Positions 8,408-43,100 of a stretch of DNA of 64,000 bases are shown here, in pieces. Both the position numbers and the translations under genes were made by a program. The DNA comes from Eledone cirrhosa (lineage: Eukaryota), in NCBI GenBank assembly GCA_964016885.1, contig OZ024741.1, positions 170,934,001 through 170,998,000 on the forward strand, given 5' to 3'. Below the pieces are notes generated by a model. The model did not search any database and was not told the DNA's origin. It worked only from the letters and a program-made list of their open reading frames with translations. Each line of letters begins with the position of its first letter. Positions within the stretch are counted from its first letter, which is position 1.

Positions 8408-8460
8408 GATACATACATACATACATACATACATACATACATACATACATACATACATAC

Positions 8461-10310
8461 ATTAAGGCTTTACAGTTAGCTAAAGTCCCACAACCATTGG
8501 TAGCTGCTGTTGAACGCCTGACCAAGAACTGGTACACCAATTTGATCCTTAGAGGTGAGAAGGAGCAGGTTAAGACTGATAAGATACATTACCAGAAGGG
8601 CATCTTTCAGGGTGATAGCTTGTCAGTGCAACTTTTCGTTCTCTCACTGAATCCACTATCTTACCTACTCAGGAAACAAGGTGGACAAAGAAGTGGGCCC
8701 AGAAGTATCTCCCATCTTTTCTTTGTTGATGACCTGAAGTTGTATGGGCCAAATATCAATGACATCAACAAACAATTGGACCTCATTACACAATTTTCAA
8801 CCGACATCAAAATGAAATTTGGTGAGTCCAAGTGTGCATATTTGGCAGCAAAATGTGGAAGAGCTGTGCCCTCCTCTGGAAATCTAGAGATGAACGCCCT
8901 GACAATACAACCTCTGCAGTCAAATGACAGGATGAGAATGTCAGATATGATGGACCCATAAATAAAGAGAGAACCAGAACTGAATACCTCAGAAGAGTAA
9001 AGAAAATATGGTCATCAGAACTGTCAGCATACAACAAATACATTGCCCACAATACTTATGCTGTGCCAATTCTAACGCCAACATTTGGCCTGCTGAACTG
9101 GTCATTGCAAGAACTAAGTGAGATGGATGTTAGAACTCGAAAACTTCTCAGTGTTACTGGGAACTTTAACATCAATCGTGATGTGGATAGGCTATACTTC
9201 TCACGCAAGGAAGGTGGCCGGGGTCTAAAATCAATATTAACAACATATGAGACCCGGATAGTAACACTGAAGCAACACCTTCAACAGAGGAAAAAGGTTG
9301 GCAACCATCTTGTCCAGGTTTATGAGCATGAAAAAAAAAATCATTAGAATAGCGACTGATCTAGAGGAGAGATATGGAATAAAGCCTGATATAAATCTCT
9401 CACCCAGAGAAATCGGAAGATCCTATTCAATGTTCAAACAAGATAAAAAAATTGACCAATTTACAGAAAAGGTTGTGCATGGATACGTGAGGCGTAAAAC
9501 ACAGACCAAAGAGGGGATAAACCACTCAAAAAGCCTGGCACGGAGTTCCGACAAGTTTATGACATCACACATTGAGGGATATCTCTATGCAATACAGGAA
9601 CAAGAACTCCCTACCAAATATATGCTGCACAAAAGAGGAGGGCCAGCAGCTGACAATAAATGTAGGCTATGTAAAACAAAGATCGAGGATGTAAGCCACA
9701 TTGTTGCCAGCTGCGAAAGAATGTCATCTCGCTACTACCTCCCCGTGAGACACGATGGGATAGCTAGAACCATCTGGAACGCACTTCGGAAAACAAAATT
9801 AACAACAAACGAGGAAGAATTTATTGAGATAGATGGCACTAAGGAATACTGGTGGAACCTCAAAATAAAAACTGCCACCAAATTAAAGCACAACCGGCCT
9901 GATATTGTTGTTTGGGACCACACATTGAAAACGTGTTCTTTTGTGGAGATCAGCTGCCCACTTGATGGAAACGTTGTCAGAAAAATAGAGGAGAAAGACA
10001 TCTACGGACCATTGATGAGGAGTTTACAAATCCAGTATCCAAGATACACCTTTAGCTTCATACCCATCATTATTGGAGCTACGGATTATATACCAACCCG
10101 CTTGGAACAAAGTATGACTGAACTTGGATTAGCGGACAAAAAGCGCAGTTCCCTAATTCATAGTCTACAAATGGCTGCGATAGCTGGCACCATGAAAATT
10201 TGCAAAACATTCTTGCGATTCAAGGGATGACAATTTCTTTTCTTTTACAACCTTGCCACCAGGAAGGTGGCCGGTCAAAAACATATAATCGAAATTAAGA
10301 GAAAGAGATA
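8461..10310 (+). mobile_element. 5'-truncated R4/Dong-type LINE (RT, CCHC, restriction-like endonuclease), frameshifted
   Basis: GIFQGDSLS and HLFFVDDLKLY (RT); CRLCKTKIEDVSHIVASC (CCHC); RHD, NRPDIVVWD, VEISCP (RLE); stop at 10230. Flanked by (TACA)n at 8409-8460 and 10311-10345. Confidence 0.9.
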
Positions 10311-10416
10311 ACATACATACATACATACATACATACATACATACATGATGGCTGCCCCCTCGTTATCGAGTATGGCCATTGCACAATAAGAAAAAAAAAA
10401 AAAAAAAAAAAAAAAA

Positions 10417-10816: not shown

Positions 10817-13800
10817 GATAGCAACTAACAGTGCTGCGATCGAATGTGGCTTTTTAGCCCAGCCAATGATCTAAAATGTCTTGCACAGAGTCGGCAACCA
10901 AAACATTTACTGGGAATAGTCGGCTGTGGTTGGAGTTCGTGTACTTTTGCATGTCGCTTGAGTCCTCCTGCTGATTTACATTCTCTACCACATGTTTGGC
11001 AAGCATGATGAGTAGCATCTCCAACAGCAGCCTGGTAGTCAACCACTGGTCTTACTTTATGACTGCGAAGATGACTTTCGAGTCCAGCTTTGCTTAGGCA
11101 GAGTCTCGCACAGACGCTGCATGTCAGAAACATAGGAGGACCCTCGCCGTCTGGAAGTGCAACAGCAATACCCTTCCTCACGTCCCGCCTTACTTTCTCG
11201 TGTGCGATTCGAGATGCCTCAAAGGCAACTTTTCCCTCATATACAGTCTTTCTCCATTTACTACGATCAGCAGCAATATTTTCCCATGTATCAGCAGAGA
11301 TGTTAGCGTCTTTCAGAGAGGCCTTCAAGGAATCCTTATACCTCTTCTTTGGTTTATGTGGCGGTCGTTTTCCTTTAACCAACTCTCCATAGAAGAGTTG
11401 TTTTGGTATTCTAGAATCCTTCATCCTGGCAAGGTGACCACTCCAACGGAGTCGCTGCTTAAGCACAAGAGCTTCTATACTGTCACACATAGAGCTTTCC
11501 AAAATCTCGACATCACTGATGTGGTCCCTCCAGTGAACGCCATGTATCCGTCTGAGACACATCTGATGGAAACGCTCCAATTGCTTAAGGTGGCGTCGAT
11601 ATGTGACCCAGGTCTCGCAGGCATAAAGAAGACAAGAGAGTACACATGCCCTGTACACCCTTACCTTTGTCCTCCTGCATATGTCTCGCCGACCCCAGAG
11701 TCGCCTTTCTAGCTTTCCGAAAGCATCACTTGCTTTCCTAATCCTAAGTGAGATTTCACTGTCAAGGTTGCCGTATCGATTGACAGTGCTTCCCAGGTAG
11801 ACAAATTGATCAACCACTCCAAGTCGTTTGCCATACACATAGATGTTTGGTTCAGTGTACTGCCTACCAGGTGCAGGTTGGTACATGACGACGGTTTTCT
11901 TGAGACTGACAGTCAAACCCAGGGCAGTGCAAGCGTCAGAAAATACATTCAAAATGTGCTGCATATCACTCTCTGTGTGCGCTACAAGATCGCAATCATC
12001 TGCATACAAGAGGTCTCTTATGACTGATGTAAATACTTTTGTCTTCGCAGCAAAGCGCCTGATGTTAAATATGCTGCCTGAGGTTCGATATCGGATGTAA
12101 ACACCATGCTCGCAATTCCTGAATGCAATACAGAAAACCATTGCAAAGTATATGGCAAACAGGGTCGGTGCTGGAATATCCCCCTGTTTCAATCCATTTT
12201 TTACTGAGATAGGCTCCGACATGTTACCTCCGACATTAACCCAAGCCTTCATGTCGTCATGGAAAGACCTAACTAAAGCAAGGAACTTATCAGGGCAACC
12301 AAGTTTCTGGAGAACCTTCCATAATGCATCTCTGTTGACAGTATCGAAAGCCTTTGTCAGATCGACAAAAACCTGATACAGATCCAAGCCCTGTTCAATG
12401 CACTTCTCCTGGAGCTGTCTAGCTGAGAAGATCATATCAGTAGTGCCGCGTCCAACACGAAAACCAGATTGACTTTCAGGAAGGACACAATCTGCAATGT
12501 GTGTCAGCAGACGGTCCAGAAGCACCCTACATAAAACTTTCCCCACGACAGAAAGCAATGATATACCTCTGTAGTTCCCACAATCATTCCTGTTACCCTT
12601 TCCCTTGTACAAGACCACCATTACTGCATCTCTCCAGTCCTCAGGCACGGATTCATTAGCCCATATCCTTCCAAACAGAGAGTGAAGATGTTGCAGGAGT
12701 CTCTCACCACCATATTGTAGGAGCTCAGCATGTATGCCATCCATACCTGGAGATCTTCCACTGTTCAGCTTCGAAATAGCCACTGCAACCTCCACAAGTG
12801 TCGGAGGTTCTGCGAGAGCTACTTTCACAGGACTTTCCGGAATGAGATTGAGGAAATCTTCACTGACGACAGACGGCTGATTCAAAAGATCATCAAAGTG
12901 CTCTCGCCACCTTCGTAGAATTCCCTGTGAGTCACGAAGAAGTTCTTTGCCATCCCTGCTGCGAATCGGTGTCACCAGAGAAGAAGACGGTCCATAAACC
13001 TCACGCAAGAGACTGTACAACAGCTTTGTGTTATTGCAATCAGACGCAGTTTGTATCTCACCAGCCTTCTCACTCCACCACTGATCCTTCATCTGAGAAA
13101 GACTCCGCCTAACACGTGATTTTACATCCCTGAGCTCCTCATGCAACGTATTCCTCTCCTGTGGTTTTGCCGTCAAGTAGCGTGACAGAGCGCGCCTCTT
13201 ATCAGCCAACAAGTCATCTATATGCACATCTTTCTCATTAAACCAGTCCTGATGTTTTCTCTGCACCAATCCCAGAACACGTCTGCCTACATCATAAACC
13301 GACTTTTTAAGGGTCGGCCAATCCTCACCAAGATCTGCAGCCTGCATCTCTTCTTCCAATGTCCTCTTCACATTTTTATCCTTAAGACGAGCAGCATTCA
13401 ATCTTTTGGGCAGGGTAACACCAGGAGCCCGGATTTTACGTTTGGTGATTAGATTCACTTTTGCGCGTACCAGGCGGTGGTCCGTCCAGCACTCAGCTCC
13501 ACGAATAACACGAACACACTGCACATCCTGTCTGTCACGCATCCTGACTAGGACGTAGTCCAAAAGATGCCATTCCTTAGATGCAGGATGCATCCATGTG
13601 GTCTTGAATTTGTTCTTTTGTTGGAACATGGTGTTGGTAACACACAGATCCAGCTCCTCACACATCTGCAGCAAGAGCATACCATTGCTGTTACACTTTC
13701 CCACCCCATGCCTTCCGATTACATTCCATGTGTTAAAATCCCTACCCACTCTAGCATTAAAGTCACCAAGCACGATGACTTTGTCTGCCTGAGGGATATT

Positions 13801-14378
13801 TCTTAAAACACCTTTCAAGGCATGGTAAAAGGACAGTTTTTCTTCATCGACAGAATTCATAGTTGGAGCATACACACTCACCAGGGTAGCATATCTTCCC
13901 TTGTCCAGCGGAACTCTCATGGACATAAGACGCTCACTAATCCCCACTGGGAATTCTTCTAATTTATTCACCAGTACAGTCTTAACAGCAAATCCTACCC
14001 CAGCCTCTCTTCTGGTTCCTTCATCTCTTCCTTTCCAGAAGAATGTATATTCTCCACAAAATTCCGTAAGATGACCATCTCCAGCTAACCTCGTCTCAGA
14101 CAAAGCCACGATGTCAAGATCGTAACGTCGAAGCTCCTTCGCAACAAGAGCGGTCCTTCGTTCAGGACGCTCCAAAGAATCCCTGTCAAGCAGCGTCCGT
14201 ACGTTCCAGCAGCCAAGACTAAATGCCCTGTTTGGCTCTATTACAATGGCACGATGACGGGCGGGCCCAGGTTGTGATAACTTGGGGCCCCTGCCCTTAT
14301 TGCCAATGATCCTTTTTGTTCCAGAACCCAAATTGGCAATTATCTCGTTTACATTGTTCTGGAACATCATTGAATTGG

Positions 14379-14411
<33 letters not shown>

Positions 14412-14416
14412 TAATA

Positions 14417-14454
<38 letters not shown>

Positions 14455-14757
14455 ACACTATTAATAATTATTAATGCACTCGTGCAATGCCTGTGCGTGA
14501 CGAATATTTTTAAAGTGAGGAAAGACTGTGCACTGAACCAATCCCACTCTCTGAGCGACAGTAGCTATAACCCGAAAAGAAGAAAAGATCAACATCATCG
14601 GTAACTACTGAGCCGCAGGTTTTATATCGGAGTTAACCCAGTTTCCTGAGATGCCTTCTCCTAGAAGAATACCCTGACATGGGCTAGGGGTTCTTCACTC
14701 CCAGTGGTTTAACTGCGCGATCGGGCATCCAGCCCGATTATTTCTATGTCCCCGCGC
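10311..14757 (-). mobile_element. Near full-length RTE/BovB-clade LINE
   Basis: 5'UTR motif CTAGGAGAAGG..ACTCCGATATAAAACC; intact ORF; 3' terminus GGCCATACTCGATAACGAGGGGGCAGCCATCAT followed by (GTAT)n. 5' boundary uncertain. Confidence 0.88.
10825..14370 (-). CDS. RTE-clade polyprotein, 1181 aa: APE endonuclease, reverse transcriptase, three C-terminal C2H2 zinc fingers
   Basis: Uninterrupted ORF with WNVRTL, ALSETR, GDFNARVG, LDYVLV, TDHRLV (APE); YRGISLLS, QSGFR, FVDLTKAFD, GLKQGD, LLYADD, YLGS (RT); three C2H2 motifs. Confidence 0.96.
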   Translation of the reverse strand: MMFQNNVNEIIANLGSGTKRIIGNKGRGPKLSQPGPARHRAIVIEPNRAFSLGCWNVRTLLDRDSLERPERRTALVAKELRRYDLDIVALSETRLAGDGHLTEFCGEYTFFWKGRDEGTRREAGVGFAVKTVLVNKLEEFPVGISERLMSMRVPLDKGRYATLVSVYAPTMNSVDEEKLSFYHALKGVLRNIPQADKVIVLGDFNARVGRDFNTWNVIGRHGVGKCNSNGMLLLQMCEELDLCVTNTMFQQKNKFKTTWMHPASKEWHLLDYVLVRMRDRQDVQCVRVIRGAECWTDHRLVRAKVNLITKRKIRAPGVTLPKRLNAARLKDKNVKRTLEEEMQAADLGEDWPTLKKSVYDVGRRVLGLVQRKHQDWFNEKDVHIDDLLADKRRALSRYLTAKPQERNTLHEELRDVKSRVRRSLSQMKDQWWSEKAGEIQTASDCNNTKLLYSLLREVYGPSSSLVTPIRSRDGKELLRDSQGILRRWREHFDDLLNQPSVVSEDFLNLIPESPVKVALAEPPTLVEVAVAISKLNSGRSPGMDGIHAELLQYGGERLLQHLHSLFGRIWANESVPEDWRDAVMVVLYKGKGNRNDCGNYRGISLLSVVGKVLCRVLLDRLLTHIADCVLPESQSGFRVGRGTTDMIFSARQLQEKCIEQGLDLYQVFVDLTKAFDTVNRDALWKVLQKLGCPDKFLALVRSFHDDMKAWVNVGGNMSEPISVKNGLKQGDIPAPTLFAIYFAMVFCIAFRNCEHGVYIRYRTSGSIFNIRRFAAKTKVFTSVIRDLLYADDCDLVAHTESDMQHILNVFSDACTALGLTVSLKKTVVMYQPAPGRQYTEPNIYVYGKRLGVVDQFVYLGSTVNRYGNLDSEISLRIRKASDAFGKLERRLWGRRDICRRTKVRVYRACVLSCLLYACETWVTYRRHLKQLERFHQMCLRRIHGVHWRDHISDVEILESSMCDSIEALVLKQRLRWSGHLARMKDSRIPKQLFYGELVKGKRPPHKPKKRYKDSLKASLKDANISADTWENIAADRSKWRKTVYEGKVAFEASRIAHEKVRRDVRKGIAVALPDGEGPPMFLTCSVCARLCLSKAGLESHLRSHKVRPVVDYQAAVGDATHHACQTCGRECKSAGGLKRHAKVHELQPQPTIPSKCFGCRLCARHFRSLAGLKSHIRSQHC

Positions 14758-20434: not shown

Positions 20435-23400
20435 CGGATTCTGTCTAACACGTGGAAAACGCGCCGGTGAGTAAATGTTTTAATTTCATTGGAAATTGCA
20501 TGAACTGAATCTACATTCTTACACCATTTTGTAGATAAGCTGCCACCCTACACTTTGTAGGTGGTAGCAACCCCAAATAATAAGCCCATCAGGGCGAAAA
20601 ACGGAGATATTCCACAACATTTCTACCGGAATTTTGAATATAGCCAAAATGGCCAAATTCTTTGACCTCATCTTCACAAAAAACACATCAGAGAATTGAG
20701 GAGATGGGCTGTTAATATCACCTTCCACAGCACTAGTAGCAGCTGAAGGCTGCCTGCCTGCTGTTATCACCAACAACAACAACACTAACAACAACGGCAA
20801 CAAAAACACCAACAACATCAAATCTGTCAGCCAACAATTAGACAGAGGTGGTGGAGGGACGGTAAAACTGTCAAGCCAAGAAGCAGCTCGCACCGACCCA
20901 TTGAAACACTTCGATATGTTTAAAACACACCCTGACAACAACACCAGCACCACCAACACGAAAATTGTGAATGGCACAAACCAAAACAACGCCATTAACA
21001 ACAACAGTGACAACGAGAACAAGAAGAACAACAACGACAACAAAACCACAACCAACAACAACAACAACACCAACAACGGAAAAAACGAAAACAACATCAA
21101 CAATAAGAACAATAATAACAACAACAAGACCAATAACTGCAACAAGGAAGTAAACGACAAAATATCATTTGCGCAAACCGTAAAGGAAACGGTAAGCTAC
21201 ACTCCGGTAGATATTTCAAATGCAAATGAGCTTTTGAATAACGCAGACAATATGTAACTTTTGGGGAGACAGATCACTCTCCATAAACTCTCCTCCAGAT
21301 TTACGAAGAGAAGCTGCCTTGAAAACTGTGATTTTCAGGACAATCTCAAACAAAACACGAAAACCGACTCAACTTTCACAAGGCGAAATTGAGTTGGTTT
21401 TAAAAAACGCCTTAAAAGACATTGCTTTTATTCAGAAGGGTAGACTCGACGGGAGTTTATCCATTCTAATGAAAGATCAATTGACGGCACATAAACATTC
21501 TGTGTCGCCAATTGTGTCACCGCTGTTCACATTTTCCCCCACTTACATGGGGAAAAGGACACAGAAAATAAAAATCCAAAGTATCACACCAAATATTGAC
21601 ATTTGGTGGGTACTATGTGGATTTTTAAACCACGAAACATACTATATAATATCGGTAGGTAAGTCCTCCGGCGACCTGTTCAGCGGAACTAGCCTGGAAG
21701 TTCTGGTCCAAATGACACAATAACGAATAGCTAGGATCCCGGAACGTGTGTTGCTTGATGGGCTTATATACATAAACATTTCGGTCGAGGGTAGGGGCCC
21801 TCATGTTACCACTGCTCAAGAAGGGATCACCTGAGAGCTTTCTGTCCTCGGTTAACTAGCCAAAAAAAGGCACTACTGCAAACACCTGCAACACCAGCAC
21901 AACATTCACCACCACCACAACAACAACAACAACATAAAAAAATAGTGACAACAAAACAAACGACAAACACAGTCCCACCCAACCCCTCCCCACCTAAAAC
22001 AACTCCAGAAACAACCACACACATAACAGCTCCCCAAAACGTACCCCTCCCCAACAACACGGATGGGGCCTCATCATCGTCACTCATTGACGATGAGGGA
22101 GTGCCTTTGCGACCAGTAAAAAGAAAAAAGAAAAGACATAACACAAACAAAAATGCAACAAACACACAAACACCAACACAAGCGACGCAAACAGGATAAA
22201 CAAAAACACCCCTCCTGAAAACAAAACACCTACTACAAAACGTAAACACATACAAGAACCACAGACAAAAAGCAACCCAACACAACAAATATGTTACACC
22301 TACATAAATACTAACAATAAAACTTTAACAGACACCATATATAAAAACCCTTCGGTGGAGACCGAAGGGAAAACTTTTACACACTCTTCGGAGGATCCTA
22401 ATCTTAAAATGATTAGGCCATCCATGGACGCACATAAACAGTTAAAAGAAAAATTTCCTAACGATGTAGGTAACCCCTGCGTCAAACGCTAAAATCGAGT
22501 CCTGTTTAAATGTTTCCCCACCCCACCCCCACCCCACCAGACACCCCTCCCCTCCCCTCCAGAGACCACCACCCCGCCAATTAACCCCTCCAACACCCCC
22601 ATGGAAATTGTACAGCCTGGTCCCCCAGGAAACAAAGAGGTGAGTGATTTCTTTTCCTCTTCTGTTAACTTTTCAGCACCAACATGGCCAATATAAGAGT
22701 TGGATGTGTGAATGAACGCGGCCTGGGGATGCCCTGGAAACAGAGCAAACTCTTAAACGACCTCAGGTCGCACAGCATGGATGTAGTAGCCATTTGCAAG
22801 TCCAGGATCCACAGCGAGCGACAACTGGCCCCCATCTTCGACGACTTTGAGATCTACGCATCTCTCTGTCAGCCGGGAGGGGGGGGTGCTGTTCTGCTGC
22901 GGAAACACCTGGATCTCGTAACACAGACGGTACATCTGGGCCCGGACAGTCGACTGGTGGTCCTAGACGTTGACGGTAGTGAAGGTGGAGCCTTCAGGCT
23001 GGTGGCCGCATATGCCCCATCCGGGAAACCGCGGTCAGACTTCTTCAAACGTCTAGAGACTTTTCTGGGAACGTCCCGCTCCCTGCTGTTAGTGGAGGAC
23101 TGGAATGGAATCCTAGATGCACGTTCGGACTATGTGGGAGCATGTCCCGATAGAGGGGGGTGTAACAGCCTCAAACAGTTAATCGGCCGATTCGACCTGG
23201 CCGATAGATATCGACTAGATTTTCCGACTGTGCCACTGTGGACGTGGACTAATCTTAGCGGAACATATAGATCGTACCTAGATAGGGTTCTAGTTAGAAA
23301 GAAGGATAGGGACATGTTAAGCTGTCCACAAATGTTAATGGTTGCCTATTCAGATCACAAATTAGTGACCTGCTTAGTCAACCTTGACAAAACCCATGGA

Positions 23401-26333
23401 CCGGCTACTGGAAGCTGAACTTGTCGTTACCGAGATGCAAAGCCTACAGTAGACAGATTAACACTTTAGTTAAGCAGCACTTGACAGGGGCCATTGTCAA
23501 CAACAGATGGTGGTACTCAAGAGAGCAGTTAGATTAGAATCGATAGGTTTTAGTAAAGAATTAGTGTTAGACAGAAATAAGACCGAAAAGGAACTGGTAG
23601 ATAAAGTAGAAAAGGCACTTAGGAGCGGCAACGTAGCCAGAGTGCTAGCGACGAGAACGGCTTTGGAGCAGTTCTTCGACGCAAAGCATGAAGGCTGCGT
23701 TGTCAGAAGCAAAATACGTGCTCTGGGAAACGAAGGAGCCAAAGCTGTTAGCGGAGCCCGAGTGACGGAGGCGAAAAGTGGCAACAAGTCCATGATTCGG
23801 TCTTTGAAGGACCAAGACGGACGCGTGATGCGTGAACCGAAGCAAATACGTGCGACCTTTCAGCGGTACTTTGCTCAACTGCTCGGGCAGGGCGGCGCGC
23901 CGGGAAGGGCTATGGATTTCGGTTCATACCTCGACGGCCTACCGCGTCTCTCGGACAGCGAGGCGAAGTTCTGAGAAAGGCCAATTTCAGCCGTTGGGAT
24001 AGGGGACGCGCTGAGCCAATGCGGCAAACGCAAATCTCCAGGTCTCGACGATCAACCCTACGAATTTTACGTAGCAATGCCGGACTTGTTCTCCGGTCTC
24101 CTGGAAGCGGTCTACTGTAACTGGCAGTAGAACGGGAGAATTCCCAGTTCTGTGACCAAGGGCGTATTCACGTTAGTCAGGAAGGACGAGAACAAGGAGG
24201 ATGACATAGGCAACTTCCGGCCCATAACTCTGCTCAACACAGAGTTACAGATTTTGGCCAAGGTGTCGGCAAAGAGGCTGGCGCTTGCCGTCGAAAACCT
24301 GGTGGGAGAATCGCAGACATGCGCAATCCCGACCAGGTCCATACACGACAACCTCCACCTCATGCGATACATCATAGAGAGGGTAGGGTGTAAACCCAGC
24401 TTCGGTGGGGCCCTGATCAACTTGGATCAGTCTAAGGCTTTCGATAGTGTTGACCATCGTTACCTGGATGCGGTGCTCGAGGCGGCAGGCTTCGGTCCCG
24501 TGTTTAGGGGCTGGATTTCTGCAATGCACAACAGCAACATCTGCTCAAGGGTCAAGGTGAACGGCTACCTCTCGGAGCCGTTCCATATCACGCGATCCAT
24601 CCGACAGAGATGCCCTCTCTCCTCCCTCCTGTACGTAGTGACTCTCGAGCCACTACTGCGGAAGTTGGAGCTATTGCAGCGCATCCCTTTGGAACCGGGA
24701 CTGCGAAAAGCGGCGTCAGCCTACGCCGACGACGTGACAATAATTGTGTCGAGCACCTCGCAATCGGGGAGATCGGCACCTTACCGGAGGAATACGAAAG
24801 TTTCACAGGAGCGAAGCTGAGCCGGGACAAAAAAGTCGGTTTGCAACTCGGAACGTGGAGAGTCAAACCAATGCCTTCCGATGACGTCGTCGGTCGCTGG
24901 ACGGAAGGACCGGTAAAGCTGCTCGGGGTCTGGTTTGGTCCTGACCTCCAGGTGGAGAAGAACTGGAACGAGGTGACGGCCAAGGTGTTTGCGCTCACCC
25001 AGAAGTGGGCCGAGTGCAAACTATCCTTGAAAGGTCGAGCGGAGGTGGCGAACACTTTTATAGCGTCCGTCATCTACTACCACTTGACCGTTGTGCCTTG
25101 ACCAGCCAAAACGCTCACCAAAATGGAGCGTGCGCTCTTCCAATTCCTTTGGAAGAAACGGGCTCCTTTGGTGAGAATATCCATCTCCTGCCAACACCCT
25201 TCAAACGGAGGGCTGGGGATGCCGTGGCTGACGATGCGCAAACACGCGCTCAGGCTGCGGCACCTCCACGTATTCCTCACCAGACAACCAGGTGTGGGAC
25301 CCGTTCGTGAGGCGAGCCTTCCCACGACTCGTCTCGCTGACCGAGCTGCAGACCTGGGTCAAGCAAAGACCGAGGAAAATGGGCGACTGCCATATCGAAT
25401 GTGCTCAGGCGCTCACAGTCCTCTGGCAAACGGACCCGGCGATCAGTGGAGACTCCACTTCGACATTCTATAGAGGGTTGGTCCGCAGCAAGTGCGACGA
25501 CCCGCTCGGAGAAACTCTAGGCGTAGTGGACGAACTGACCATTCTGTTCAGTAGGACCTTCCCCCTGGGACCAATGGACAACTTCCAAAAGTCCCTGGCC
25601 TGGCAGTGCTAGCGAGGAGCTCTACCAGTTCGAGACATGCTCTACAGACACGGGCGCCCGGGTAGAGCCCCTTCGAAAAAGATATGTCGCAGATGCGTGC
25701 GCGACGAGGAAACCGTCGCACACGCATTTGTACACTGTCCGGTCGTTACCGACCTGTGGGGCTATGTAGAACGACTATTGTCGCGGGTGGGACCAATCCA
25801 GTTAACCACCGAGTCCATTGTCATGATCAAACCGCCACCCTACTTCAAAAACGAGGGAGAGGCGGTTTTCCTATGTGTTATGGCTATGGTGAAAGAGGTT
25901 ATATGGTGGACGAGGTTAAAAGTGCTGAAGTCAGACACCTTTCTCTCCGGCGAGCAACTGATTTGTTTTTTCAAATATCATTTTGGAAGAAGAATCAGGA
26001 TGGAGAGAGAGGTGCTCTGTACCCCAGCAAATTTTATAAAAGGTGGGTGAATGTGGCAAAGATGGCCCGAGTGGTTGGGCCTTCTCTCTATTTAAGCCTA
26101 TAGGTTGTGGAAAAAAAGGAAGAGAGGAAGGGAGTACTCACTCTTGGTGCTCCTGGAGATGAGGGTTGTACATTTTTTCGGGGTGTGTACAACCCCTGTG
26201 TAACACCTCCCCCTATCGGGGATTTCAATTGTTTTTTGTTATTGTATTAATAGTTTTATTTTCATATACCTGTATGTAAACTCCCCATTTGTATTTGTCC
26301 CCTTCTTTTGTGCCCTTGTGGCTAATAAAGAAA
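20435..26333 (+). mobile_element. Full-length, inactivated Tx1/L1-clade LINE (copy 1)
   Basis: 5'UTR; ORF1 from ATG 20649 (Asn-rich, CYHCSRRDHLRAFC knuckle); ORF2 from ATG 22684; AATAAA at 26324; (ATCT)n on both flanks. Confidence 0.9.
22684..26103 (+). pseudogene. Tx1 ORF2 (APE, RT, C-terminal zinc finger) with stops and frameshifts
   Basis: VGCVNERGL, YLDRVLV, YSDHKLV, FRPITLLNTE, LDQSKAFD, AYADDVT, LLGVWF, GGLGMP, CRRC..ETVAHAFVHC. Confidence 0.92.
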
Positions 26334-26352
26334 TTTATCTATCTATCTATCT

Positions 26353-29300
26353 CTGGGATGGACACGTGTGTTAAACTTGCTCGGTAAGTTTTGTTTAAAT
26401 TTCTTTAGAAATTCGTCATTGTGAACTTTTATTTTTATACCAATTTGTAGAGGGACTGACAGGTCAAACTTTGATCTGGTCAGTCTCCCAAAATATCGTG
26501 CCCTTCAGAGCAAAAACATCAAAAATATTTTCGAAAAAAATAAATGTTTGCAAAACACTTTCATTTTTTAAAAATGGCTGAAGCAAAGGCACCTACTTAT
26601 TTGTCAAAACAAGAAGATTGGAATGGAAAGCCATGCCTACTTGACCAGCAGGTAGTATCAGACATGGACAAAGGAAGGCCAACATTATCGCCTCAACATT
26701 TAGAAGAGGAACAAGCTTCAGCTGCTTGTAAGCAACTGAACAAGCCTGACGTCACAAACGTCACATGTATCCACACACAGAAGGAAGTATGTGTAGCAAA
26801 TAATAACACCACCACAAGCAACAACAACAACACAATAAATGAGAACAACAACAAACCAACAAAAGGAATCAGTGGCAACACAACGAATGAGACCATCATC
26901 ACCACCAACAACAACAATAACAACATTTCATTTGCAGCAACAGGATTTTAAATACTACATCCATGGACATTTCCCAAAAGTCCCAATATTTGGAAGAAGC
27001 TTCCAACTATGTGACGTTTGAGGGAGACACCCCACACATACACATCCCCCACAAGTAAGAGAAATGACACAGAAAAAGAAGTTAATTTATAGAACAGTTG
27101 ACATCACTACCAAAAAACCCATAACGCTCCCAACAAGCACTATCGAAGCTGCACTAAAAGACATCAAGCCAGACGTTGCATACCTCCAAAGAGGTAAACA
27201 GTATGGAAGTGTGTCAGTGTTCTTTAAGAGCGAAACTCTGGCACAAAAACACTCGGTTCACCCAATAAAGACGGATCAACACATCTTCGCCACATACATG
27301 GGAAGAAGATCCTACAAAATAAAAATAACCAGGATCCCAGCAGAGGTCAACATATGGTGGATCCTACGCTGCATCCTGAAGAAGGATGAAGACACCCTCC
27401 TATCTGTAGACAGGAAAGACCGGCATAACTGGTTTGGAACCTGCATCGAGGTTCTGGTACAAATAAGGCCAGAGATAAATACCGGACAGGATCGTCCTTG
27501 AGGAAGATGTCATCTCCATTTTAGTGGAGGGGAAAAGACCTCAGTGCCATAAGTGTGAGAAAACCACACACTTAAAGGCCTTTTGCCCTCTCTTAAACAA
27601 ACCGAAGACAAACAAGGTGTTATTACCAACACCAAAACCCCAACATCAACACTCCAAACCAAACACAACACAAACACCCGTAACATCCACTCCCACACCA
27701 CCACAGCACACACAATCCCACTGAAAAACCCTCCATTGCCTCTCCCCCCTCCCCTGTCAAATACTTCCACAAACACCTGCCCAAACACTCTACCACACGA
27801 CATACCCCTCCCATCTACCCCTGATTCAGAAGTTTCAGATACGGGAACCTCTACATCTCCAAGTGAGAATGAAGAGGAACCCCAAAAATCCAAAAAACCA
27901 AAAAGACACAAAAAAGACGCAAAAACATCTACAGAAAAGACGCACACACTCAACCCCACCATAAACACACCGCCACAAACGACAAACGCACCAACAACAC
28001 AATCACCACCAACACAACCAAACACTTCACCAACAAAACAAACACACATACCACCATAATCACAAACCCCAACCACAAAAAAAAAACTACAAACAGAAAC
28101 AGGACACATAAAAAACAAAACACACTACACATACATAAAAACAAGAAACAAAGAACTGGTGGAAACTGTCCGAAAGGACCCCACAATACAAACGGAAGGG
28201 AAATCGTTCCCCACCAAAGACCCACCCCCAAACCTCAAACTTATCAGGGTAACAACCCTACAATATGAAACTTTAAAAGAGAACTTCCCACATTATGTGG
28301 GCCCCTCTTGCCAAAAGCCCCTTAACCGTGTCCTGCTAAAAGGATTCCCTCCCTCCCCAAACACCACCAATCTGGACATGGAGATCGAACAACCCGACCT
28401 CCAGGAAACGAAAAGGTAAGTGTTCCTGCCTTTTCTTTCCTTAACTCTTCTTCACCAACATGGCGACTATACAAGCTGGATGTTTGAATGTACGTGGCCT
28501 GGGCATGTCCTGGAAACAGGACCAGCTTTTAAATGATCTCAGGTGACATCGTATAGATGTGATAGCCATCACCGAGTCCAGAATTCACGACAAGCAGCAG
28601 CTAACCCCCAAGGGGGAGGGGGAGTTGCTGTTCGGTTTCGAAAAGACTTAGATCTCAAAATACAGACGATTCACTTGGACCCGGAGGGCAGCCAGGTGGT
28701 CCTGGACGTGAATGGTAGTGAAGGTGGAGCTTTCAGGCTGGTGGCTGTATATGCCCCTGCTGGGACATCGCGACCAGAGCTCTTCAAGCGTCTGGAGCCA
28801 TTTCTGGGAACGTCTCGCTCCTTAGTGTTAGCGGGGGACTCGAATGGCATCTTAGACGCACGTTGGGACTATGTAGGAGCTTGTGATAATAGAAGGGGGT
28901 TAATAGCCTCAAAAATCTCATCAGTCCAATTCTAACTGGCTGATAGATATCGAATAGACTTCCCAAGTGCAGCACTGTGGACGTGGAGCAAACGCACTGG
29001 ATCGTATTTAGATAGATTTTTAATTAGACAGAATGATAAGGAAACATTAAGTTGTCCACAAATGCACATGGTTGCCTATTCAGACCACAAATTAGTCACC
29101 TGGGTAGTCAACCTTGATAGAACACATAGACTGGGACCCGGATACTGGAAGCTAAACATGTCGCTCCCGGCGTGTAAGGCCTACAGTGAATGGATTAGCA
29201 CCTTAGTTAAGTGCCAGGTGACGGGGGCGATCGTCAACATCAGGTGGTGGAGCTCTCTGAAGAGAGCAATTATAGAATCGATAGTATTTAGCAAGGAAGT

Positions 29301-31980
29301 AGCTTTAGAAAAAAACAAAACTGAAAAGGAACTGGTAGCTAAAATAGAAGAGGCACTTAGGAATGGCAGTACAACTGATGTGCTAGCGGCGAGAACGGCA
29401 CTAGACCAGTTCTTCAACGTGAAACACGAAGGTTGTATTGTCATAAGTAGAACACGTGCTCTAAGAAACGAGGGAGCCAAAGCTGTTAGCTGTGCCCGAG
29501 TGGCAGAGGCGAAAAGTGGCAACAAATCCACAATTCGGTCTTTGCAAGACAAAAATGGACGCATTACACTTGAATCCAAGCAGATGTGCGCAGCCTTCCA
29601 GCAGCATTTTGCACAACTGTTCGGGCAAAGCGATACATCGAACGAGGTAATGGACTTCAGCCCCTACCTCCACGGCGTACCGCGACTCTCGAGCACGGAT
29701 GCGGAGAGCTGCGAAAGGCCGATCACAGCGGGCGAAATAGAAGATGCCCTAGGCCGCTGCGGGAAACGCAAATCCCCCGGTTTAGATGGTCTACCCTATG
29801 AGTTTTACATAGGCATGCCAGACTTGTTCTCTGGCGTCCTCGAAGCCGTCTACTGCAACTGGCAGCAGAACGGGAGGATTCCCAGTTCTGTAGGCAGAGG
29901 TGTAGTAACGCTGATCAGGAAAGATGAGAACAAGGGGGATGAGATAAGAAGTTTCAGGCCCATAACTCTGCTCAACACAGAGTTAAAGATTTTGGCCAAG
30001 GTTTTAGAAGCAAGGCTGGCGCTTGACGTCGAGAACCTGGTAGGGGAAGCCCAAACGTGTGCAATCCCAACCATATCCATACACGACAACCTCACCTCAT
30101 GCGATACATCATAGAGAGGGTAGGGTGTAAACCTGGCTTTGGTGGGGCTCTGATCAATTTAGATCAGTCTAAGGCATTTGATAGGGTTGACCATCAATAC
30201 TTGGAAGCAGTTCTCAAGGCGGCCGGCTTCGGTCCTATTTTCAGAGGCTGGATCGCTGCCATGCACACCAGCATCTGCTCGGCAGTCAATGTGAATGGCT
30301 ACCTATCAGAGCCATTCCAAATCATGCGTTCCATTCGTCAGGGATGCCCTCTCTCCTCCATTCTGTATGTACTGACTCTCGAGCCGTTACTGCGGAAATT
30401 GGAGCTGTCGAACCATGACTGCGGAAAGCAACGTCAGCCTATGCCAACGACATAACCATAATGGTGTCGAAAACCTCGGAAATCAGGGTAATCGGCAACC
30501 TATTACAGGAATACGAAACATTGACAGGAGCAAGACTAAACCCAAACAAGTCTGTCGGTTTGCAACTCGGCACATGGAGAGGCAAACCCATGCATTCTGA
30601 CAGTGTCGTTGGACGCTGGACGGAAGGACCGGTGAAATTGCTCGGTGTCTGGTTCGGTCCAGACCTCCAGGTGGACAAGAACTGGAACGAGGTCACGGCG
30701 AAGGTGTTTGCACTCACCCAGAAGTGGGCTGAGTGCAAACTCTCCTTGAAAGGTCGAGCGGAGGTGGCGAACACTTACATAGCGTCCGTCATCTACTACC
30801 GCTTGACTTTCCCCCGCGAATACCTTACCAAAATGGAACGCCTACACTTCAAGTTCCTCTGGAAGAAACAGGCTCCATTGATGAGGAGATCCATCTGCTG
30901 TCTGTCAACACCCTTCTAACGGAGGGCTGGGCATGCCGTGGCTGATGATGTGCAAACATGCGCTGAGGCTACGCCATCTCCAGGTATTCCTGGCCGGTGA
31001 ACCGGTGTGGCTGTCATTTGTGAGACAAGCTCTTCCACAACTTGTCTCACTAACAGAGCTGCAGTCCTGGGTCAAGCGAAGACCGAAAATGGGTGCCTGG
31101 CACCTTGAGTGCCTACAGGCGCTCACAGCCCTCTACCAAGCAGAAACGGCAATCAGCGGAGTTTCCACTTTTGACATTCTATAGGGGATTAGTGGAGGAT
31201 AAGTGCGACGACGTTCTCGGGGAAACTCTAGGCATCGAGGAGGACGAACTGACCAGTCTGTTCGGGAGGACTTTCGATCCAGGGCCTATGGATAACTTCC
31301 CGAGGTCTCTGTCCTGGCAGTGCTACCGAGGAGGACATCGAAACCGTTCTGCACGCAATTGTTCAGTGCCCGGGTGACAGACCTGTGGAATTATGTCGAA
31401 CAGCTTCTGTCACGTGTGGGACGCATCCAGTTGTCAGCCGAGTCCATCGTGAGGATCACCCCGCCGCCTTCATTTAAGAACGAAGGAGAGGCGGTTTTCC
31501 TCTGTGTGGTGGCTATGGCGAAAGAGGTAATATGGTGGACGAGGTTAAAAGGAGTGAGGGCAAACACCGTTCTCTCCGGACAACAACTTATCCCCTTCTT
31601 TAAGTATCACTTCAGACGGAAGGTGCGAGTGGAGAGAGAGGTGCTACACCCCAGTAAATTCGCTGAAAGGTGGGTGAATGTGGCAAAAATGGCCTCAGTG
31701 AATGGGCCTTCTCTGTATATAAACCTGTAGGTTGAGGAAGATAAACAGAGGGAAGATAGGAACACCTACAAAACGTGTTCCGGGTGTTGAGGGTTGTTCT
31801 ATCCACGCGGTGTAAAACAACCCTGCAGTAACGTTTCCCTCTATTGGGGATTTCAATTGTTATTTTATTATATATAGTTTATTGTTATTTATTAATGTTA
31901 AAGTTATTTTTATGTAAAACCCCTGCCGTCACGTCTTGTAATGTCCCATTTTTGTACGCCCATGTGGCAAATAAAGAAAG
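26353..31980 (+). mobile_element. Full-length, inactivated Tx1/L1-clade LINE (copy 2, different subfamily)
   Basis: ORF1 from ATG 26574 with CHKCEKTTHLKAFC; ORF2 from ATG 28460; AATAAA at 31970; followed by (TC)n. Confidence 0.9.
28460..31730 (+). pseudogene. Tx1 ORF2 (APE, RT) with frameshifts and deletions
   Basis: YSDHKLV, GPGYWKLN, KSPGLDGLPYEFY, FRPITLLNTE, LDQSKAFDRV, SIRQGCPLS. Collinear with copy 1. Confidence 0.92.
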
Positions 31981-31981
31981 A

Positions 31982-37114: not shown

Positions 37115-40100
37115 CACCACAACCTCCACTACCACCACCACCGCCACCACAACAACAACAACAAATAACACCACCACCATCACCACCACAACAACAACTA
37201 ACACCACTACCACCACTATCACCACCACCACAACAACAACAACACCAATCACTACCATCACCACCACAACAACAACTGCCACCACCACCATCACAACCAC
37301 AACAACAACTACCACCACCACCACAGCCATCACCACCACAAAAACAACTACCACCACCACCGCCATCATCACCACAAAAACAACTACCACCACCACCACC
37401 ATCACCACAACAACAACTACCACCACCACCACCATTACCACCACAACAAAAAGTACCACCACAATCACCACCACAACAACAACTACCACCAGCACCACAA
37501 TCACCTTCACCACAACAACAACAAATACCACCACCACCATCACCAGCACAAAAACAACTACCACCACCACACCGCCATCACCACCTCGACAAAAATAACC
37601 ACCACCACCATCACATCACCACCAAAATGACAACTACCACCACCACCACAACAACAACTACCGCCACCACCATCACCATCACCACCACAACGACAAATAA
37701 CACCACCATCACCATCACCGTCACAAAAACAACTACCACCACCACCACCACCATCACCATCACAACAACAACTACCACCACCACTACCACCACCACAACA
37801 ACAACAACTACCAACACCACCACCATCACCACCACAATAACAAATACCACCACCACCATCACCACCACAACGACAAATACCACCACCATAACCATCACCG
37901 CCACAAAAACAACTACCACCACCACCGCCATCTCCACCACAACAACAACTACTACGTCCACCACCACCATCACCACCACAATAAAAACTACCACCACCAC
38001 CACCACCACCACCACAACAACAACAACTAACACCACCACCACCATCAACACCAAAACAACTACCACCACCACCATCACCATCACTGACACAATGAACACT
38101 ACCACCACCACCATCACCATCACCACCACAACAACAACTACGACCACAACCACCATCACCACCACAACAACAACTACCACCACCATCAACACCATCACCA
38201 CCACAACGAACACTACCACCACTACCATCACCATCACCACCACAACAACAACTACCACCACCACCACAACAACAACTACCACCACCACCAACATCACCAC
38301 CACAACAACAACTACCACCACCACCAACACCACCACCACAACAACTACCACCACAACTGCCATCACCACCACAACACCAACTACCACCACCAACACCACA
38401 AGCACCACCACAACAACAACTACCACCACCACCTCAGTCACCACCACAACAACAACTACCACCAACCACCATCACCACCATAACAACTACCACCACCACC
38501 ACCACCACCATCACCACCGCAACAACAACTATCACCAACGTTACCATCACCACCACAATAACTACCACCACCACAACAATAACTACCACCACCATCACCA
38601 CAACAGCAACAACTACCACCACCACCACCTCAACAACAACTACCACCACCATCACCAACACCACAACAACTACCACCACCACCACCATCACTACCACAAC
38701 AACAACTACCACCACCACCACCATCACCACCACAACAATAATTACCACCATCACCGCCATCACCACCACAACAACAACTACCACCACCACCACCATAAAC
38801 ACCACAACAACAACTACCACCACCAACATAACCATCACCACCAAAACGAACACTACCACCACTACCATCACCATCACCACCACAACAAAAACTACCACCA
38901 CCACCACAACAACAACTACCACCACCACCAACATCACCATCACAACAAAAACTACCACCACCACCAACACCACCACCACAACAACTACCACCACCACTGC
39001 CATCAGCACCACAACAAGTACCACCATCACCATCACCAAAACAAAAACTACCACCACCACCACCATCACCACCACAATAACAACTACCACCACCTACACC
39101 ACCATCACCACCACAACAACGACTACCACCACCACCATCACCACCACAACAACTAGCAGAACCACCACCACCATCACCACAACACCAACTACCACCACCA
39201 ACACCACCAGTACCACCACAACAACAACTACCACCACCACCTCCATCACCACCACAACAACTACCACCACCACCACCACCACCATCACCACCGCAACAAC
39301 AACTACCACCAACCACCATCACCACCATTACAACTACCACCACCACCGCCACCACCATCACCACCGCAACAACGACTATCACCAACGTTACCATCACCAC
39401 CACAACAACTACCACCACCACTACAACAACTACCACCACCACCACCATCACCACCACAACAATAACTACCACCACCACCACCACCACAACAACAACTATC
39501 ACCACCACCACCTCAACAACAACTACCACCACCACCATCACCAACACCACAACAACTACCACCACCACCATCACTACCACAACAACTATCACCACCACCA
39601 CCACAACAACAACTATCACCACCACCACCTCAACAACAACTACCACCACCACCATCACCAACACCACAACAACCACCACCACCACCATCACCACCATCAC
39701 CACCACAACAACTACCACCACCACCACCACCATCACCACCACAACAACAACTACCACCACCACCACCATCACTACCACAACAATAATTACCACCACCACC
39801 ACCATCACCACCACAACAGAATTACCACCATCACCGCCATCACCACCGCAACAACAACTACCACCACCACCACTAACATCACACCACTACAACAACTACC
39901 ACAACCACAATCAGCACCACAACAACAACTACCACAACCACCATCACCACCACAACAACAACTACCACCACCACCACCATCACCACCACCATCACCACCA
40001 CAACAACAACTACCACCACCACCATCACCACCACAACAACAACTACCACCACCACCACCACCATCAGCACCACAACAACAACTACCACCATCACCACCAT

Positions 40101-43100
40101 AACCACCATCACCACCACAACAACAACTACCACCACCACCATCACCATCACTACCACAATGAACACTACCACCACCACCATCACCATCACCACCACAACA
40201 ACAACTACCACCACCACCTCCATCACCACCCCAACAACAACTACCGCCACCACCATCACCACCACAACGACAAATACCACCACCATCACCATCACTACCA
40301 CAATGAACACTACCACCACCACCACCACCATCACCCCACAACAACAACTACCACCACCACCACAACAACAACTACCACCACCACCATCACCATCACCACC
40401 ACAACGAACACTACCACCACCACCATCACCATCACCACCACAACCACAACTACCACCATAACCACCATCACCATCACAACAACAACTACCACCACCAATA
40501 CCACCACCACAACAACAACAACTACCACCACCACCATCACCATCACCACCACAACGACAAATACCACCACCATCACCATCACAATCACCACCACAAAAAC
40601 AGCTACCACCGCCACCACCATCACCACCACAACAACAACTACTACTACCACCACCACCATCACCACCACAACAAAAACTCCCACCACCACCATCACCACC
40701 CCAACAACTACCGACACCACCACAACAACAACTACCACCACCACCACAACAACAACTAACACCACCACCATCGCCACCTCAACAACAAATACCACCACCA
40801 CTATCACCATCACCACCACAATAATAACTAACAACACCACGACCATCACAACAACAACTACCACCACCACTACCAGCACCACAATAACAACAACTACCAC
40901 CTCCGCCACCATCACCACGAAAACAACAACTACCACCACCACCGCCATCACCAACACAACAACTACCACCACCACCACCACCATCACCACAACAAATACT
41001 ACCACCACCACCACCACCACCATCACCACCTCAACAACAACTACCACCACTACCATCACCATCACCACCACAACAACAACTACCACCACACCACCATCAC
41101 CACCACAACAACAACTACCACCACCACCATCAACATCACCACCACAACGAACACTACCACCACTACCATCACCATCACCACCAAAACAACAACTACCACC
41201 ACCACCACAACAAAAAAAAATACCACCACCACCACCACCACCATCACCACCACAACAACAACTACCACCACCACCATCAACATCACCACCACAACAACAA
41301 CTACCACCTCCACCAACATCACCAACACAACAACAACTACCACCACCACCAATATCACCACCACAACAACAACTACCACCAACACCACCACCACAACAAC
41401 TACCACCACCACTGCCATCACCACCGCAACAAGTACCACCATCACCATCACCAAAACAACAACTACCACCACCACCACCATCACCACCACAACAAAAACT
41501 ACCACCACCTACACCACCATAACCACCACAACAACAACTACCACCACCACCATCACCACCACAACAACTAGCAGAACCACCACCACCATCACCAAAAGAA
41601 CAACAACCACCACCACCACCATCACCGCCACAGAAGCAACTACCACCACCACCACCATCTCCATCACAACAACAACTACTACCACCACCACCACCATCAC
41701 TACCACAACAATAATTACCACCACCACCACCATCACCACCACAACAGAATTACCACCATCACCGCCATCACCACCGCAACAACAACTACCACCACCACCA
41801 CTAACATCACACCACTACAACAACTACCACAACCACAATCAGCACCACAACAACAACTACCACAACCACCATCACCACCACAACAACAACTACCACCACC
41901 ACCACCACCATCACCACCACCATCACCACCACAACAACAACTACCACCACCACCATCACCACCACAACAACAACTACCACCACCACCACCACCATCAGCA
42001 CCACAACAACAACTACCACCATCACCACCATAACCACCATCACCACCACAACAACAACTACCACCACCACCATCACCATCACTACCACAATGAACACTAC
42101 CACCACCATCATCACCATCACCACCTCAACAACAACTACCACCACCACCTCCATCACCACCCCAACAACAACTACCGCCACCACCATCACCACCACAACG
42201 ACAAATACCACCACCATCACCATCACTACCACAATGAACACTACCACCACCATCACCATCACCACCACCACCACAACAACAACTACCGCCACCACCATCA
42301 CCATCACCACCACAACGAACACTACCACCACCACCATCACCATCACCACCACAACAACAACTACCACCACCACCATCACCCCACAACAACAACTACCACC
42401 ACCACCACAACAACAACTACCACCACCACCATCACCATCACCACCACAACGAACACTACCACCACCACCATCACCATCACCATCACAACAACAACTACCA
42501 CCACCAATACCACCACCACAACAACAACAACTACCACCACCACCATCACAATCACCACCACAAAAACAGCTACCACCGCCACCACCATCACCACCACAAC
42601 AACAACTACTACTACCACCACCACCATCACCACCACAACAAAAACTCCCACCACCACCATCACCACCCCAACAACTACCGTCACCACCACAACCACAACT
42701 ACCACCACCACCACAACAACAACTAACACCACCACCATCACAACCTCAACAACAAATACCACCACCACTATCACCATCACCACCACAATAATAACTAACA
42801 ACACCACCACCATCACAACAACAACTACCACCACCACTACCAGCACCACAATAACAACAACTACCACCTCCGCCACCATCACCACGACAACAACAACTAC
42901 CACCACCACCGCCATCACCAACACAACAACTACCACCACCACCACCACCATCACCACAACAAATACTACCACCACCACCACCACCACCATCACCACCTCA
43001 ACAACAACTACCACCACTACCATCACCATCACCACCACAACAACAACTACCACCACACCACCATCACCACCACAACAACAACTACCACCACCACCATCAA

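What the first reader, a model, noticed from the sequence alone, without database searches (positions are those of the whole stretch)
20449..26450. Conserved intron-like segment in the 5'UTR of both Tx1 LINEs
Seen: copy 1 has CG|GTGAGT..TTTTGTAG| at 20467-20534 (68 nt). Copy 2 has CG|GTAAGT..ATTTGTAG| at 26384-26450 (67 nt). Position and length match, both contain TGAACT, and both follow a CACGTG (20449, 26363), although the UTRs are otherwise diverged. Known: LINE copies are reverse-transcribed from RNA, so efficiently spliced introns should be lost; intron retention is known mainly from Penelope-like elements. Inference: this lineage may use a spliced mRNA for translation and unspliced RNA as the transposition template.
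Basis: partly seen in the sequence, partly recalled or inferred. Interest (0 to 1): 0.8.

Follow-up and report, generated by a model that had tools for sequence, protein, structure and literature searches.

The report
Intron-keeping LINE with two splice donors
A family of copy-and-paste jumping genes in this animal keeps a short intron-shaped piece at its front end in every copy counted, plus a second splice-donor motif at the end of its first gene, which likely means it uses the host splicing machinery to separate RNA that is translated from RNA that is copied back into DNA.

Summary
The two GT..AG segments are at the stated coordinates and are homologous. The elements are tandem, degraded, microsatellite-targeting Tx1-like LINEs.

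Of 13 leader types sampled from this genome, all carry a donor (GTRAGT, one GTAAGC) 22-83 nt from the 5' end. The first AG beyond 40 nt falls 60-69 nt after it in all 13, including four types where the donor has moved about 30 nt; in three types it is a weak AAG. Genome-wide, 792, 461 and 28 copies keep the segment and none lacks it; human L1 yields about 2% spliced copies.

New: a second donor sits at the end of ORF1 in 68 of 75 junctions, in all three reading phases, with no consistent acceptor.

No RNA data were available, so splicing is not shown. Best reading (0.45): a real Penelope-like leader intron whose spliced RNA is not a template. Rivals: U1 binding without splicing (0.3), a promoter or RNA motif that mimics a donor (0.18). 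New variant of a known kind.

The parts
20435..26335 (+). Element 1 (head type A): full-length, degraded Tx1-like LINE starting after a short TATC run and ending in AATAAA plus a few bases
   Evidence: about 71 candidate heads in the genome
20447..20454 (+). DPE-like box 20 nt before donor 1; a variant of the RGACGTGY element of Drosophila LINE and Penelope promoters; function inferred
   Evidence: motif named in PMC2377424
20467..20534 (+). Leader intron-like segment, 68 nt, GTGAGT..TAG, no AG between the donor and the acceptor
   Evidence: 28 of 28 exon-1-anchored family-A copies keep it
20539..20569 (+). Hairpin 1 directly 3' of the acceptor (z -4.3 for the 81-nt stretch)
20649..22645 (+). 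ORF1, broken in this copy; Asn-rich N-terminus and one CCHC knuckle
22640..22645 (+). Donor 2, AG|GTGAGT at the end of ORF1, at the stem/loop of a small predicted hairpin; in types A and G a CAG follows 30-37 nt later
22684..26103 (+). ORF2 (APE endonuclease, RT, zf-RVT), broken; stop TAG at 26101 followed by GT
26336..26351 (+). (TATC)4 target microsatellite between the two elements
   Evidence: the same flank occurs in most copies
26352..31981 (+). Element 2 (head type B): full-length, degraded Tx1-like LINE, about 76% identical to element 1 over ORF2
   Evidence: 1135 first-look candidates for its post-intron leader
26360..26368 (+). DPE-like box; the family majority reads CACATG at the place where this copy reads CACGTG
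26384..26450 (+). Leader intron-like segment, 67 nt, GTAAGT..TAG
   Evidence: 792 B/C/D heads with it, 0 without
26452..26488 (+). Hairpin 1 of element 2, same place as in element 1 but different sequence (z -3.2)
26574..28421 (+). ORF1, broken in this copy
28416..28421 (+). Donor 2, AG|GTAAGT containing the ORF1 stop TAA; no AG before the ORF2 ATG at 28460
28460..31730 (+). ORF2, broken; stop TAG at 31728 followed by GT

Best explanation
The segment is present in every counted copy of a microsatellite-targeting Tx1-like LINE lineage and is likely a real minimal-length spliceosomal intron sitting just behind an internal promoter, which would split the element's RNA into a spliced pool used only for translation and an unspliced pool that alone is copied into DNA. 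Shown: the donor, an AG 60-69 nt later, a second donor at the end of ORF1, and no spliced genomic copy. Inferred: transcription starts near the repeat/element boundary, driven by the DPE-like box; U1 binds donor 1; some transcripts are spliced. Inferred, weaker: spliced transcripts mostly serve ORF1 and lose or fail to translate ORF2, with donor 2 likely marking that branch. ORF2p would then be made from, and copy in cis, the intron-retaining RNA. This explains zero spliced copies without giving up cis preference, and resembles the Gag-only mRNA of plant Copia elements.
For: Donor in 13 of 13 head types and first AG beyond 40 nt at 60-69 nt in 13 of 13; shuffle probability per type 0.005-0.10 for the donor and 0.17-0.23 for the AG window. 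Twelve subtypes of A, B, C, D, I keep GTRAG..TAG at 67-69 nt with no AG in the last 33 nt; interior identity between main types is 0.41-0.57, B versus D 0.86. In G, H, E, F the donor is lost at that place and present about 30 nt further 3', again with YAG|G at 60 or 69 nt in 5 of 6 heads; F has a CACTAAC branch-like site. The (ATT)n-flanked families J, K, M (ORF2 DNA about 73% identical) also have it. Copies with/without: 792/0, 461/0, 28/0; the any-acceptor probe gave 4 hits, none spliced. At the 2% of human L1 (PMC5860796) about 16 of 792 would be expected. Donor 2: 49 of 55 and 19 of 20 junctions, phases 0, 1 and 2, all three stop codons used; 1479 unspliced and no spliced copy among 76 probe hits, 30 of which were read in full. 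Precedent: Penelope DPE, donor and 75-nt leader intron, mostly spliced in RNA yet retained in copies, and needed for reporter protein output (PMC2377424, passages).
Against: The acceptor is weaker than the donor: AAG in J, K, M; GAG in one H copy; pyrimidine fraction only 0.45 in I types; exon-2 starts vary. The 58-70 nt window was chosen after seeing the data and the types are related, so the products of probabilities overstate significance. In group 2 the AG lies in or beside hairpin arms, which could supply it for structural reasons. A branch point is clear only in F and some D copies. Donor 2 has no acceptor at a shared place: the next AG lies 28-54 nt on or beyond the scanned stretch, and joining ORF1 to ORF2 is not frame-consistent. 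The ORF2 stop looks like an acceptor (TAG|GT in 63 of 77) but has AG within 18 nt upstream in 7 of 13 types and reads TAG|GC, TAG|AC or TAA in distant families. Zero spliced copies is also what no splicing at all predicts.
Confidence: 0.45

Rival explanations
1. The donors are U1 snRNP landing sites that work mostly without splicing. Donor 1 would stimulate the internal promoter and shield the A-rich ORF1 from early polyadenylation; donor 2 would do the same for ORF2. The AG is incidental or rarely used, and local hairpins keep the donors from firing.
For: The donor is conserved more strictly than any acceptor. Donor 2 has up to 10 of 11 U1 pairings and no consistent acceptor. All 12 full-length elements carry 1-6 AATAAA upstream of ORF2. 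Donor 1 is predicted paired above the leader mean in most types. U1 blocks early termination of the Copia element EVD (PMC5580714, passages). It predicts zero spliced copies directly.
Against: It does not explain the 60-69 nt spacing to an AG in 13 of 13 types or the AG-free 3' zone. ORF2 has no AATAAA in 12 of 12 elements, so donor 2 has little to shield. Pairing probabilities come from single-sequence folds of AT-rich RNA and are weak evidence.
Confidence: 0.3
2. GTRAGT is a DNA promoter or transcription-factor site, or an RNA motif bound by the element's own proteins, that only resembles a donor, as the L1 5'UTR donor is kept by a RUNX3 site. Donor 2 would belong to a stop/restart hairpin that couples ORF2 translation to ORF1.
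For: In human L1 the donor lies inside a conserved RUNX3 site, which the authors propose as the reason it is kept (PMC5860796, passages). Donor 1 lies 20-24 nt behind a DPE-like box in A, B, I, J, K. A palindrome AATTTC-N4-GAAATT lies inside the segment in A, B, D. Donor 2 sits in a purine:pyrimidine hairpin whose loop usually holds the ORF1 stop; F has no ATG at the ORF2 start, which suggests reinitiation.
Against: The motif varies as a donor does (A or G at +3, one GTAGGT type, AG before it in most donor-2 sites) and is kept in three reading phases. It moved about 30 nt in four types, which a fixed-spacing core promoter element would not. The same motif at two unrelated places is more simply one ligand, U1.
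Confidence: 0.18
3. Chance in one ancestor followed by common descent, with no function.
For: The two window segments are homologous; all sampled types belong to one lineage.
Against: It is kept across types whose segment interiors are 41-57% identical and whose ORF2 DNA is 66-96% identical, regained at a new place in four types, and present twice per element.
Confidence: 0.05

Closest known systems
Penelope (Drosophila virilis) and Chlamys-3_cRei leader introns, Penelope-like elements
   Same: Internal promoter with RGACGTGY-type DPE, a conserved donor shortly behind it, a short 5'UTR intron (75 nt in Penelope), intron kept in genomic copies (PMC2377424, PMC8557442; passages).
   Different: Here the element has APE endonuclease, RT and zf-RVT in a two-ORF LINE, not GIY-YIG; splicing is untested; there is a second donor at the end of ORF1.
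Human L1 5'UTR splice sites and SpIREs
   Same: L1-group LINE with a long-conserved 5'UTR donor near the 5' end.
   Different: L1 sites use distant acceptors and leave about 2% spliced copies (131 of 6609; PMC5860796). Here the unit is 60-69 nt with full consensus and 0 of 1281 counted copies are spliced.
Arabidopsis Ty1/Copia EVD shGAG system
   Same: A conserved U1 site governs a spliced structural-protein mRNA versus an unspliced full-length template (PMC5580714, passages); this is the inferred logic here.
   Different: That is an LTR element with the intron inside Gag-Pol and mapped RNAs; here no RNA is mapped and no partner acceptor or poly(A) site is known for donor 2.
Target-specific Tx1 families (Kibi, Koshi, Keno)
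   Same: Microsatellite targeting, two ORFs; groups with (TC)n-flanked relatives in the quick tree; clade description from PMC4494074 (passages).
   Different: Targets are (TATC)n and (ATT)n; donor 2 is absent from distant relatives (1 of 50); no leader intron of Tx1 turned up in my searches.
Tad and TART non-LTR elements
   Same: Non-LTR elements with introns in transcripts (PMC1636488, passages; Tad only as cited there).
   Different: TART introns are in antisense RNA; I did not read the Tad paper.

Membership tests
Tx1 clade of non-LTR retrotransposons | ORF2 with APE endonuclease, RT and C-terminal zinc domain | tested here: met
   Pfam RVT_1 7.8e-21, zf-RVT 4.3e-6, Exo_endo_phos 7.6e-5 (just under its cut-off) on window ORF pieces; intact 1145-aa ORF2 in L107
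Tx1 clade of non-LTR retrotransposons | Separate ORF1 with CCHC knuckle | tested here: met
   593-aa and 611-aa ORF1 with one CCHC motif in L107 and L101, read from the translations; three window ORF1 pieces had no Pfam hit
Tx1 clade of non-LTR retrotransposons | Target-sequence preference | tested here: met
   (TATC)n flanks; (ATT)n for J, K, M
Tx1 clade of non-LTR retrotransposons | RT phylogeny inside Tx1 | tested here: inconclusive
   Quick IQ-TREE, 70 rows, no bootstrap: own elements join (TC)n-flanked relatives (SH-aLRT 92) within a 58-row group holding U2- and U1-flanked elements (97), apart from plant L1. No named Tx1 reference was on hand; relatives were labelled by flanks, with U1 and U2 ends recognised from recall
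Tx1 clade of non-LTR retrotransposons | Target-site duplication | not tested
   Flanks are the same repeat on both sides
U2-type spliceosomal intron | GT donor matching U1 | tested here: met
   13 of 13 types; 6-8.5 of 11 U1 pairings for donor 1
U2-type spliceosomal intron | YAG acceptor with pyrimidine tract and AG-free zone | tested here: inconclusive
   YAG in 10 of 13 types, AAG in 3; pyrimidine fraction 0.45-0.77
U2-type spliceosomal intron | Branch point | tested here: inconclusive
   YTRAY-like site clear in F and some D copies only, judged by eye
U2-type spliceosomal intron | Removed from RNA | not testable with these tools
   No RNA run could be laid
SpIRE-forming L1 splice sites | Spliced copies integrated in the genome | tested here: not met
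   0 against 792, 461 and 28
Penelope-like elements | GIY-YIG endonuclease with PLE-type RT | tested here: not met
   APE endonuclease, two ORFs; works like, is not a member
Known structured RNA head (snRNA, SL RNA, ribozyme) | Rfam match over the leader | tested here: not met
   Two chance-level hits elsewhere at E 1 and 8; only two tRNAs in 12 loci

The most novel reading that the evidence does not exclude
A canonical APE-type LINE is built like a gene: short exon, minimal intron, an ORF1 exon closed by a second donor, and the whole of ORF2 removed as an intron ending at its own TAG stop. Splicing would make an ORF1-only mRNA, while only the unspliced RNA makes ORF2p and is copied. This would be a splicing-based control of the ORF1:ORF2 ratio and of template choice that my searches did not find described for LINEs.
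Probability: 0.13. Interest if true: 0.88.

Novelty: new variant of a known kind. Interest (0 to 1): 0.62.

Why it matters
How Penelope-like elements keep introns through reverse transcription is described as unexplained (PMC8557442, passage), and is attributed there to their unusual mechanism. A standard target-primed LINE doing the same would show that intron retention needs no special enzyme, only a split between translated and template RNA. The family has over a thousand full-length heads, intact young copies and natural variants (moved donor, weak acceptor, three phases of donor 2), so the question is directly testable with RNA reads and a reporter. If U1 binding without splicing is the answer, it is a clear case of a LINE selecting for U1 sites.

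Tried and rejected
RNA evidence: no RNA holder listed; this is no evidence either way. The three listed runs are of unrecorded kind and one sample; laying them showed no joint at either leader among the rows shown (one search hid 271 joints), and I draw nothing from it. Protein searches for spliced ORF1 variants found no ORF1 relative at all. The first metagenome scan and the viral scan found nothing. SL-RNA, snRNA or ribozyme head: rejected on Rfam. ORF1-ORF2 fusion by a short junction intron: a local acceptor exists only in some types and frames disagree. ORF2 as an intron: 0 ORF2-less copies and mixed acceptor quality; kept at low odds. The 76 hits looked like a donor-less subfamily; the 30 read in full were a chance match inside RT of families J/K, 45 of the other 46 show the same matched context, and one (C28) reads as a shifted donor and was not opened. 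The careful tree did not finish; the quick tree is used. Hairpin covariation was judged by eye, not counted. Earlier-findings look-ups were empty. Host intron lengths were not measured.
Full report
Observation. They lie in the leaders of two tandem LINEs separated by (TATC)4, upstream of ORF1. The leaders align at about 70% over 122 nt, so this is one inherited feature. The shared CG, CACGTG and TGAACT do not hold across copies: family A mostly has TG before the donor (29 of 34 other copies), family B mostly CACATG (21 of 29 by eye), and TGAACT is missing from most other subtypes.

What the elements are. The genome is 3.0 Gb in 1796 contigs; an octopus-like host is my guess from size and repeat content, not tested. 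ORF2 has APE endonuclease, RT and zf-RVT; intact relatives have a roughly 600-aa ORF1 with one CCHC knuckle and a 1145-aa ORF2. Copies start after (TATC)n and often stack in tandem. In a quick RT tree of 70 rows (two own rows dropped for short matches) they join (TC)n-flanked relatives inside a group with U2- and U1-flanked elements. That fits Tx1 as described in PMC4494074, but no named reference was available.

Sampling other subfamilies. To avoid selecting for splice signals I took tandem neighbours and ORF2-matched elements; types C and D were also reached by leader patterns. This gave 13 head types. Types A, B, C, D, I (12 subtypes) keep GTRAG and TAG 67-69 nt apart, with no AG in the last 33 nt and interiors 41-57% identical between main types, B versus D 86% (ends anchored, so their invariance there is by construction, but the free alignment also lines them up apart from a one-base slip in A). 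Types G, H, E, F have lost the donor at that place and carry one about 30 nt further 3', with YAG|G 60 or 69 nt later in 5 of 6 heads. Types J, K, M flank (ATT)n, have the donor at +32 to +37 and a first AG at 60-68 nt, but as AAG. Per type, shuffles give a donor in 0.5-10% and the AG window in 17-23% of trials. The window was set after the fact and types are related. The donor evidence is strong; the acceptor evidence is moderate.

Copies with and without the segment. Exact gap patterns found 792 B/C/D heads with the segment and 0 without, 461 F heads with and 0 without (only acceptors upstream of the 3' anchor are covered), and 28 of 28 A heads with it. A probe for any other acceptor gave 4 hits: 2 unrelated, 2 small duplications; it misses partners with A at +3 or T at +6. 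Zero in 792 puts the spliced share under about 0.4% (rule of three); human L1 has about 2% (PMC5860796). So spliced RNA is not a template, or is not made.

A second donor. Each full-length element has only 2-4 GTRAGT, and 12 of 12 have one in the leader and one at the end of ORF1 (window 22640 and 28416). It is in 49 of 55 and 19 of 20 junctions; the misses include three GTAGGT, one truncated copy and point variants. It is read as Arg-stop, Glu-Val-Ser or Gly-Lys/Glu-stop, so in all three phases, and all three stops occur. It is therefore kept as nucleotides. It sits at the stem/loop of a predicted purine:pyrimidine hairpin, with a by-eye compensatory change between A and B. No shared acceptor was found. 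The ORF2 stop reads TAG|GT in 63 of 77 and is a YAG in 13 of 13 types with the second-highest pyrimidine content among 32 conserved YAG columns, but upstream AGs are common and distant families differ. There are 1479 unspliced junctions and no spliced one. Distant Tx1-like loci lack donor 2 (1 of 50), but 12 of 24 hand-picked leaders have GTRAGT against 3.9 expected and 5 on the antisense strand (24 of 80 loci, partly redundant), so donor 1 may be older and wider.

How it likely works. A DPE-like box lies 20-24 nt before donor 1 in A, B, I, J, K, the same order as in Penelope, where the DPE, a donor and a 75-nt intron follow the start site, most transcripts are spliced, copies keep the intron, and deleting it abolishes reporter protein (PMC2377424). 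I infer a real minimal intron with two RNA pools. Because L1-type ORF2p prefers its own mRNA (recalled), the simplest way to get no spliced copies is that spliced RNA serves ORF1 and not ORF2, with donor 2 marking that branch, as the Gag-only mRNA does in Copia (PMC5580714). Confidence 0.45. U1 binding without splicing (0.3) fits the donor-over-acceptor conservation and the AATAAA sites in ORF1. A mimic motif (0.18) has the L1 RUNX3 precedent. Chance is at 0.05. None of the RNA steps is shown.

Literature. Ten searches found no description of a retained leader intron or paired donors in Tx1; the library lacks most subscription papers and Repbase reports. I saw the abstract and passages of PMC5860796, and passages of PMC2377424, PMC8557442, PMC5580714, PMC4494074, PMC1636488, PMC13282606 and PMC10294476; other papers as listings only; no supplements, which for the octopus repeat annotation could hold these families.

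Verdict. New variant of a known kind; interest 0.62, limited by the lack of RNA data.

Noticed in passing
window 37115-52955: A 16-kb degenerate (CAC/CAA/ACC)n array with 33-36 nt higher-order periods, almost no G on the + strand and long open frames in several phases (His- or Thr-rich); looks like a satellite rather than a gene.
   Followed up: partly
window 10825-14457, minus strand: Another LINE with a 1209-aa open frame (APE, RT, C-terminal C2H2 fingers), only 22% identical to the Tx1-like ORF2; apparently intact ORF2.
   Followed up: partly
window 8392-10350: 5'-truncated RT plus zf-RVT fragment flanked by (ATAC)n on both sides and not matched by the Tx1-like ORF2; may be a further microsatellite-targeting LINE.
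   Followed up: no
L101 6080 and L093, L104, L255 (type F): Type F has no ATG at the ORF2 start; the ORF1 stop TAG overlaps an ATA codon there, suggesting non-AUG reinitiation; 461 F heads counted.
   Followed up: partly
G000:C1:423363000-423411000 (L275-L281, L295): Head-to-tail array of at least seven near-identical type J elements at a 5.83-kb period; J and K flank (ATT)n rather than (TATC)n.
   Followed up: partly
L244, L245, L251, L106: Mosaic elements: a head of one type joined to the ORF1 end or body of another, so leaders are swapped between subfamilies.
   Followed up: no
L155, L158, L159, L167, L169 (metagenome contigs): Tx1-like elements whose leaders start with the U1 5' end (recognised from recall) also carry a donor-like GTRAGT downstream, which could pair with their own U1 head.
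   Followed up: partly
all head types, e.g. window 20539-20600 and 26452-26515: Two hairpins follow the segment in the heads examined, with different sequences between types; covariation not counted.
   Followed up: partly
L095 8959-9990: Three tandem 345-nt units made of about 8 nt of a type A head joined to a Tx1 3' end.
   Followed up: no
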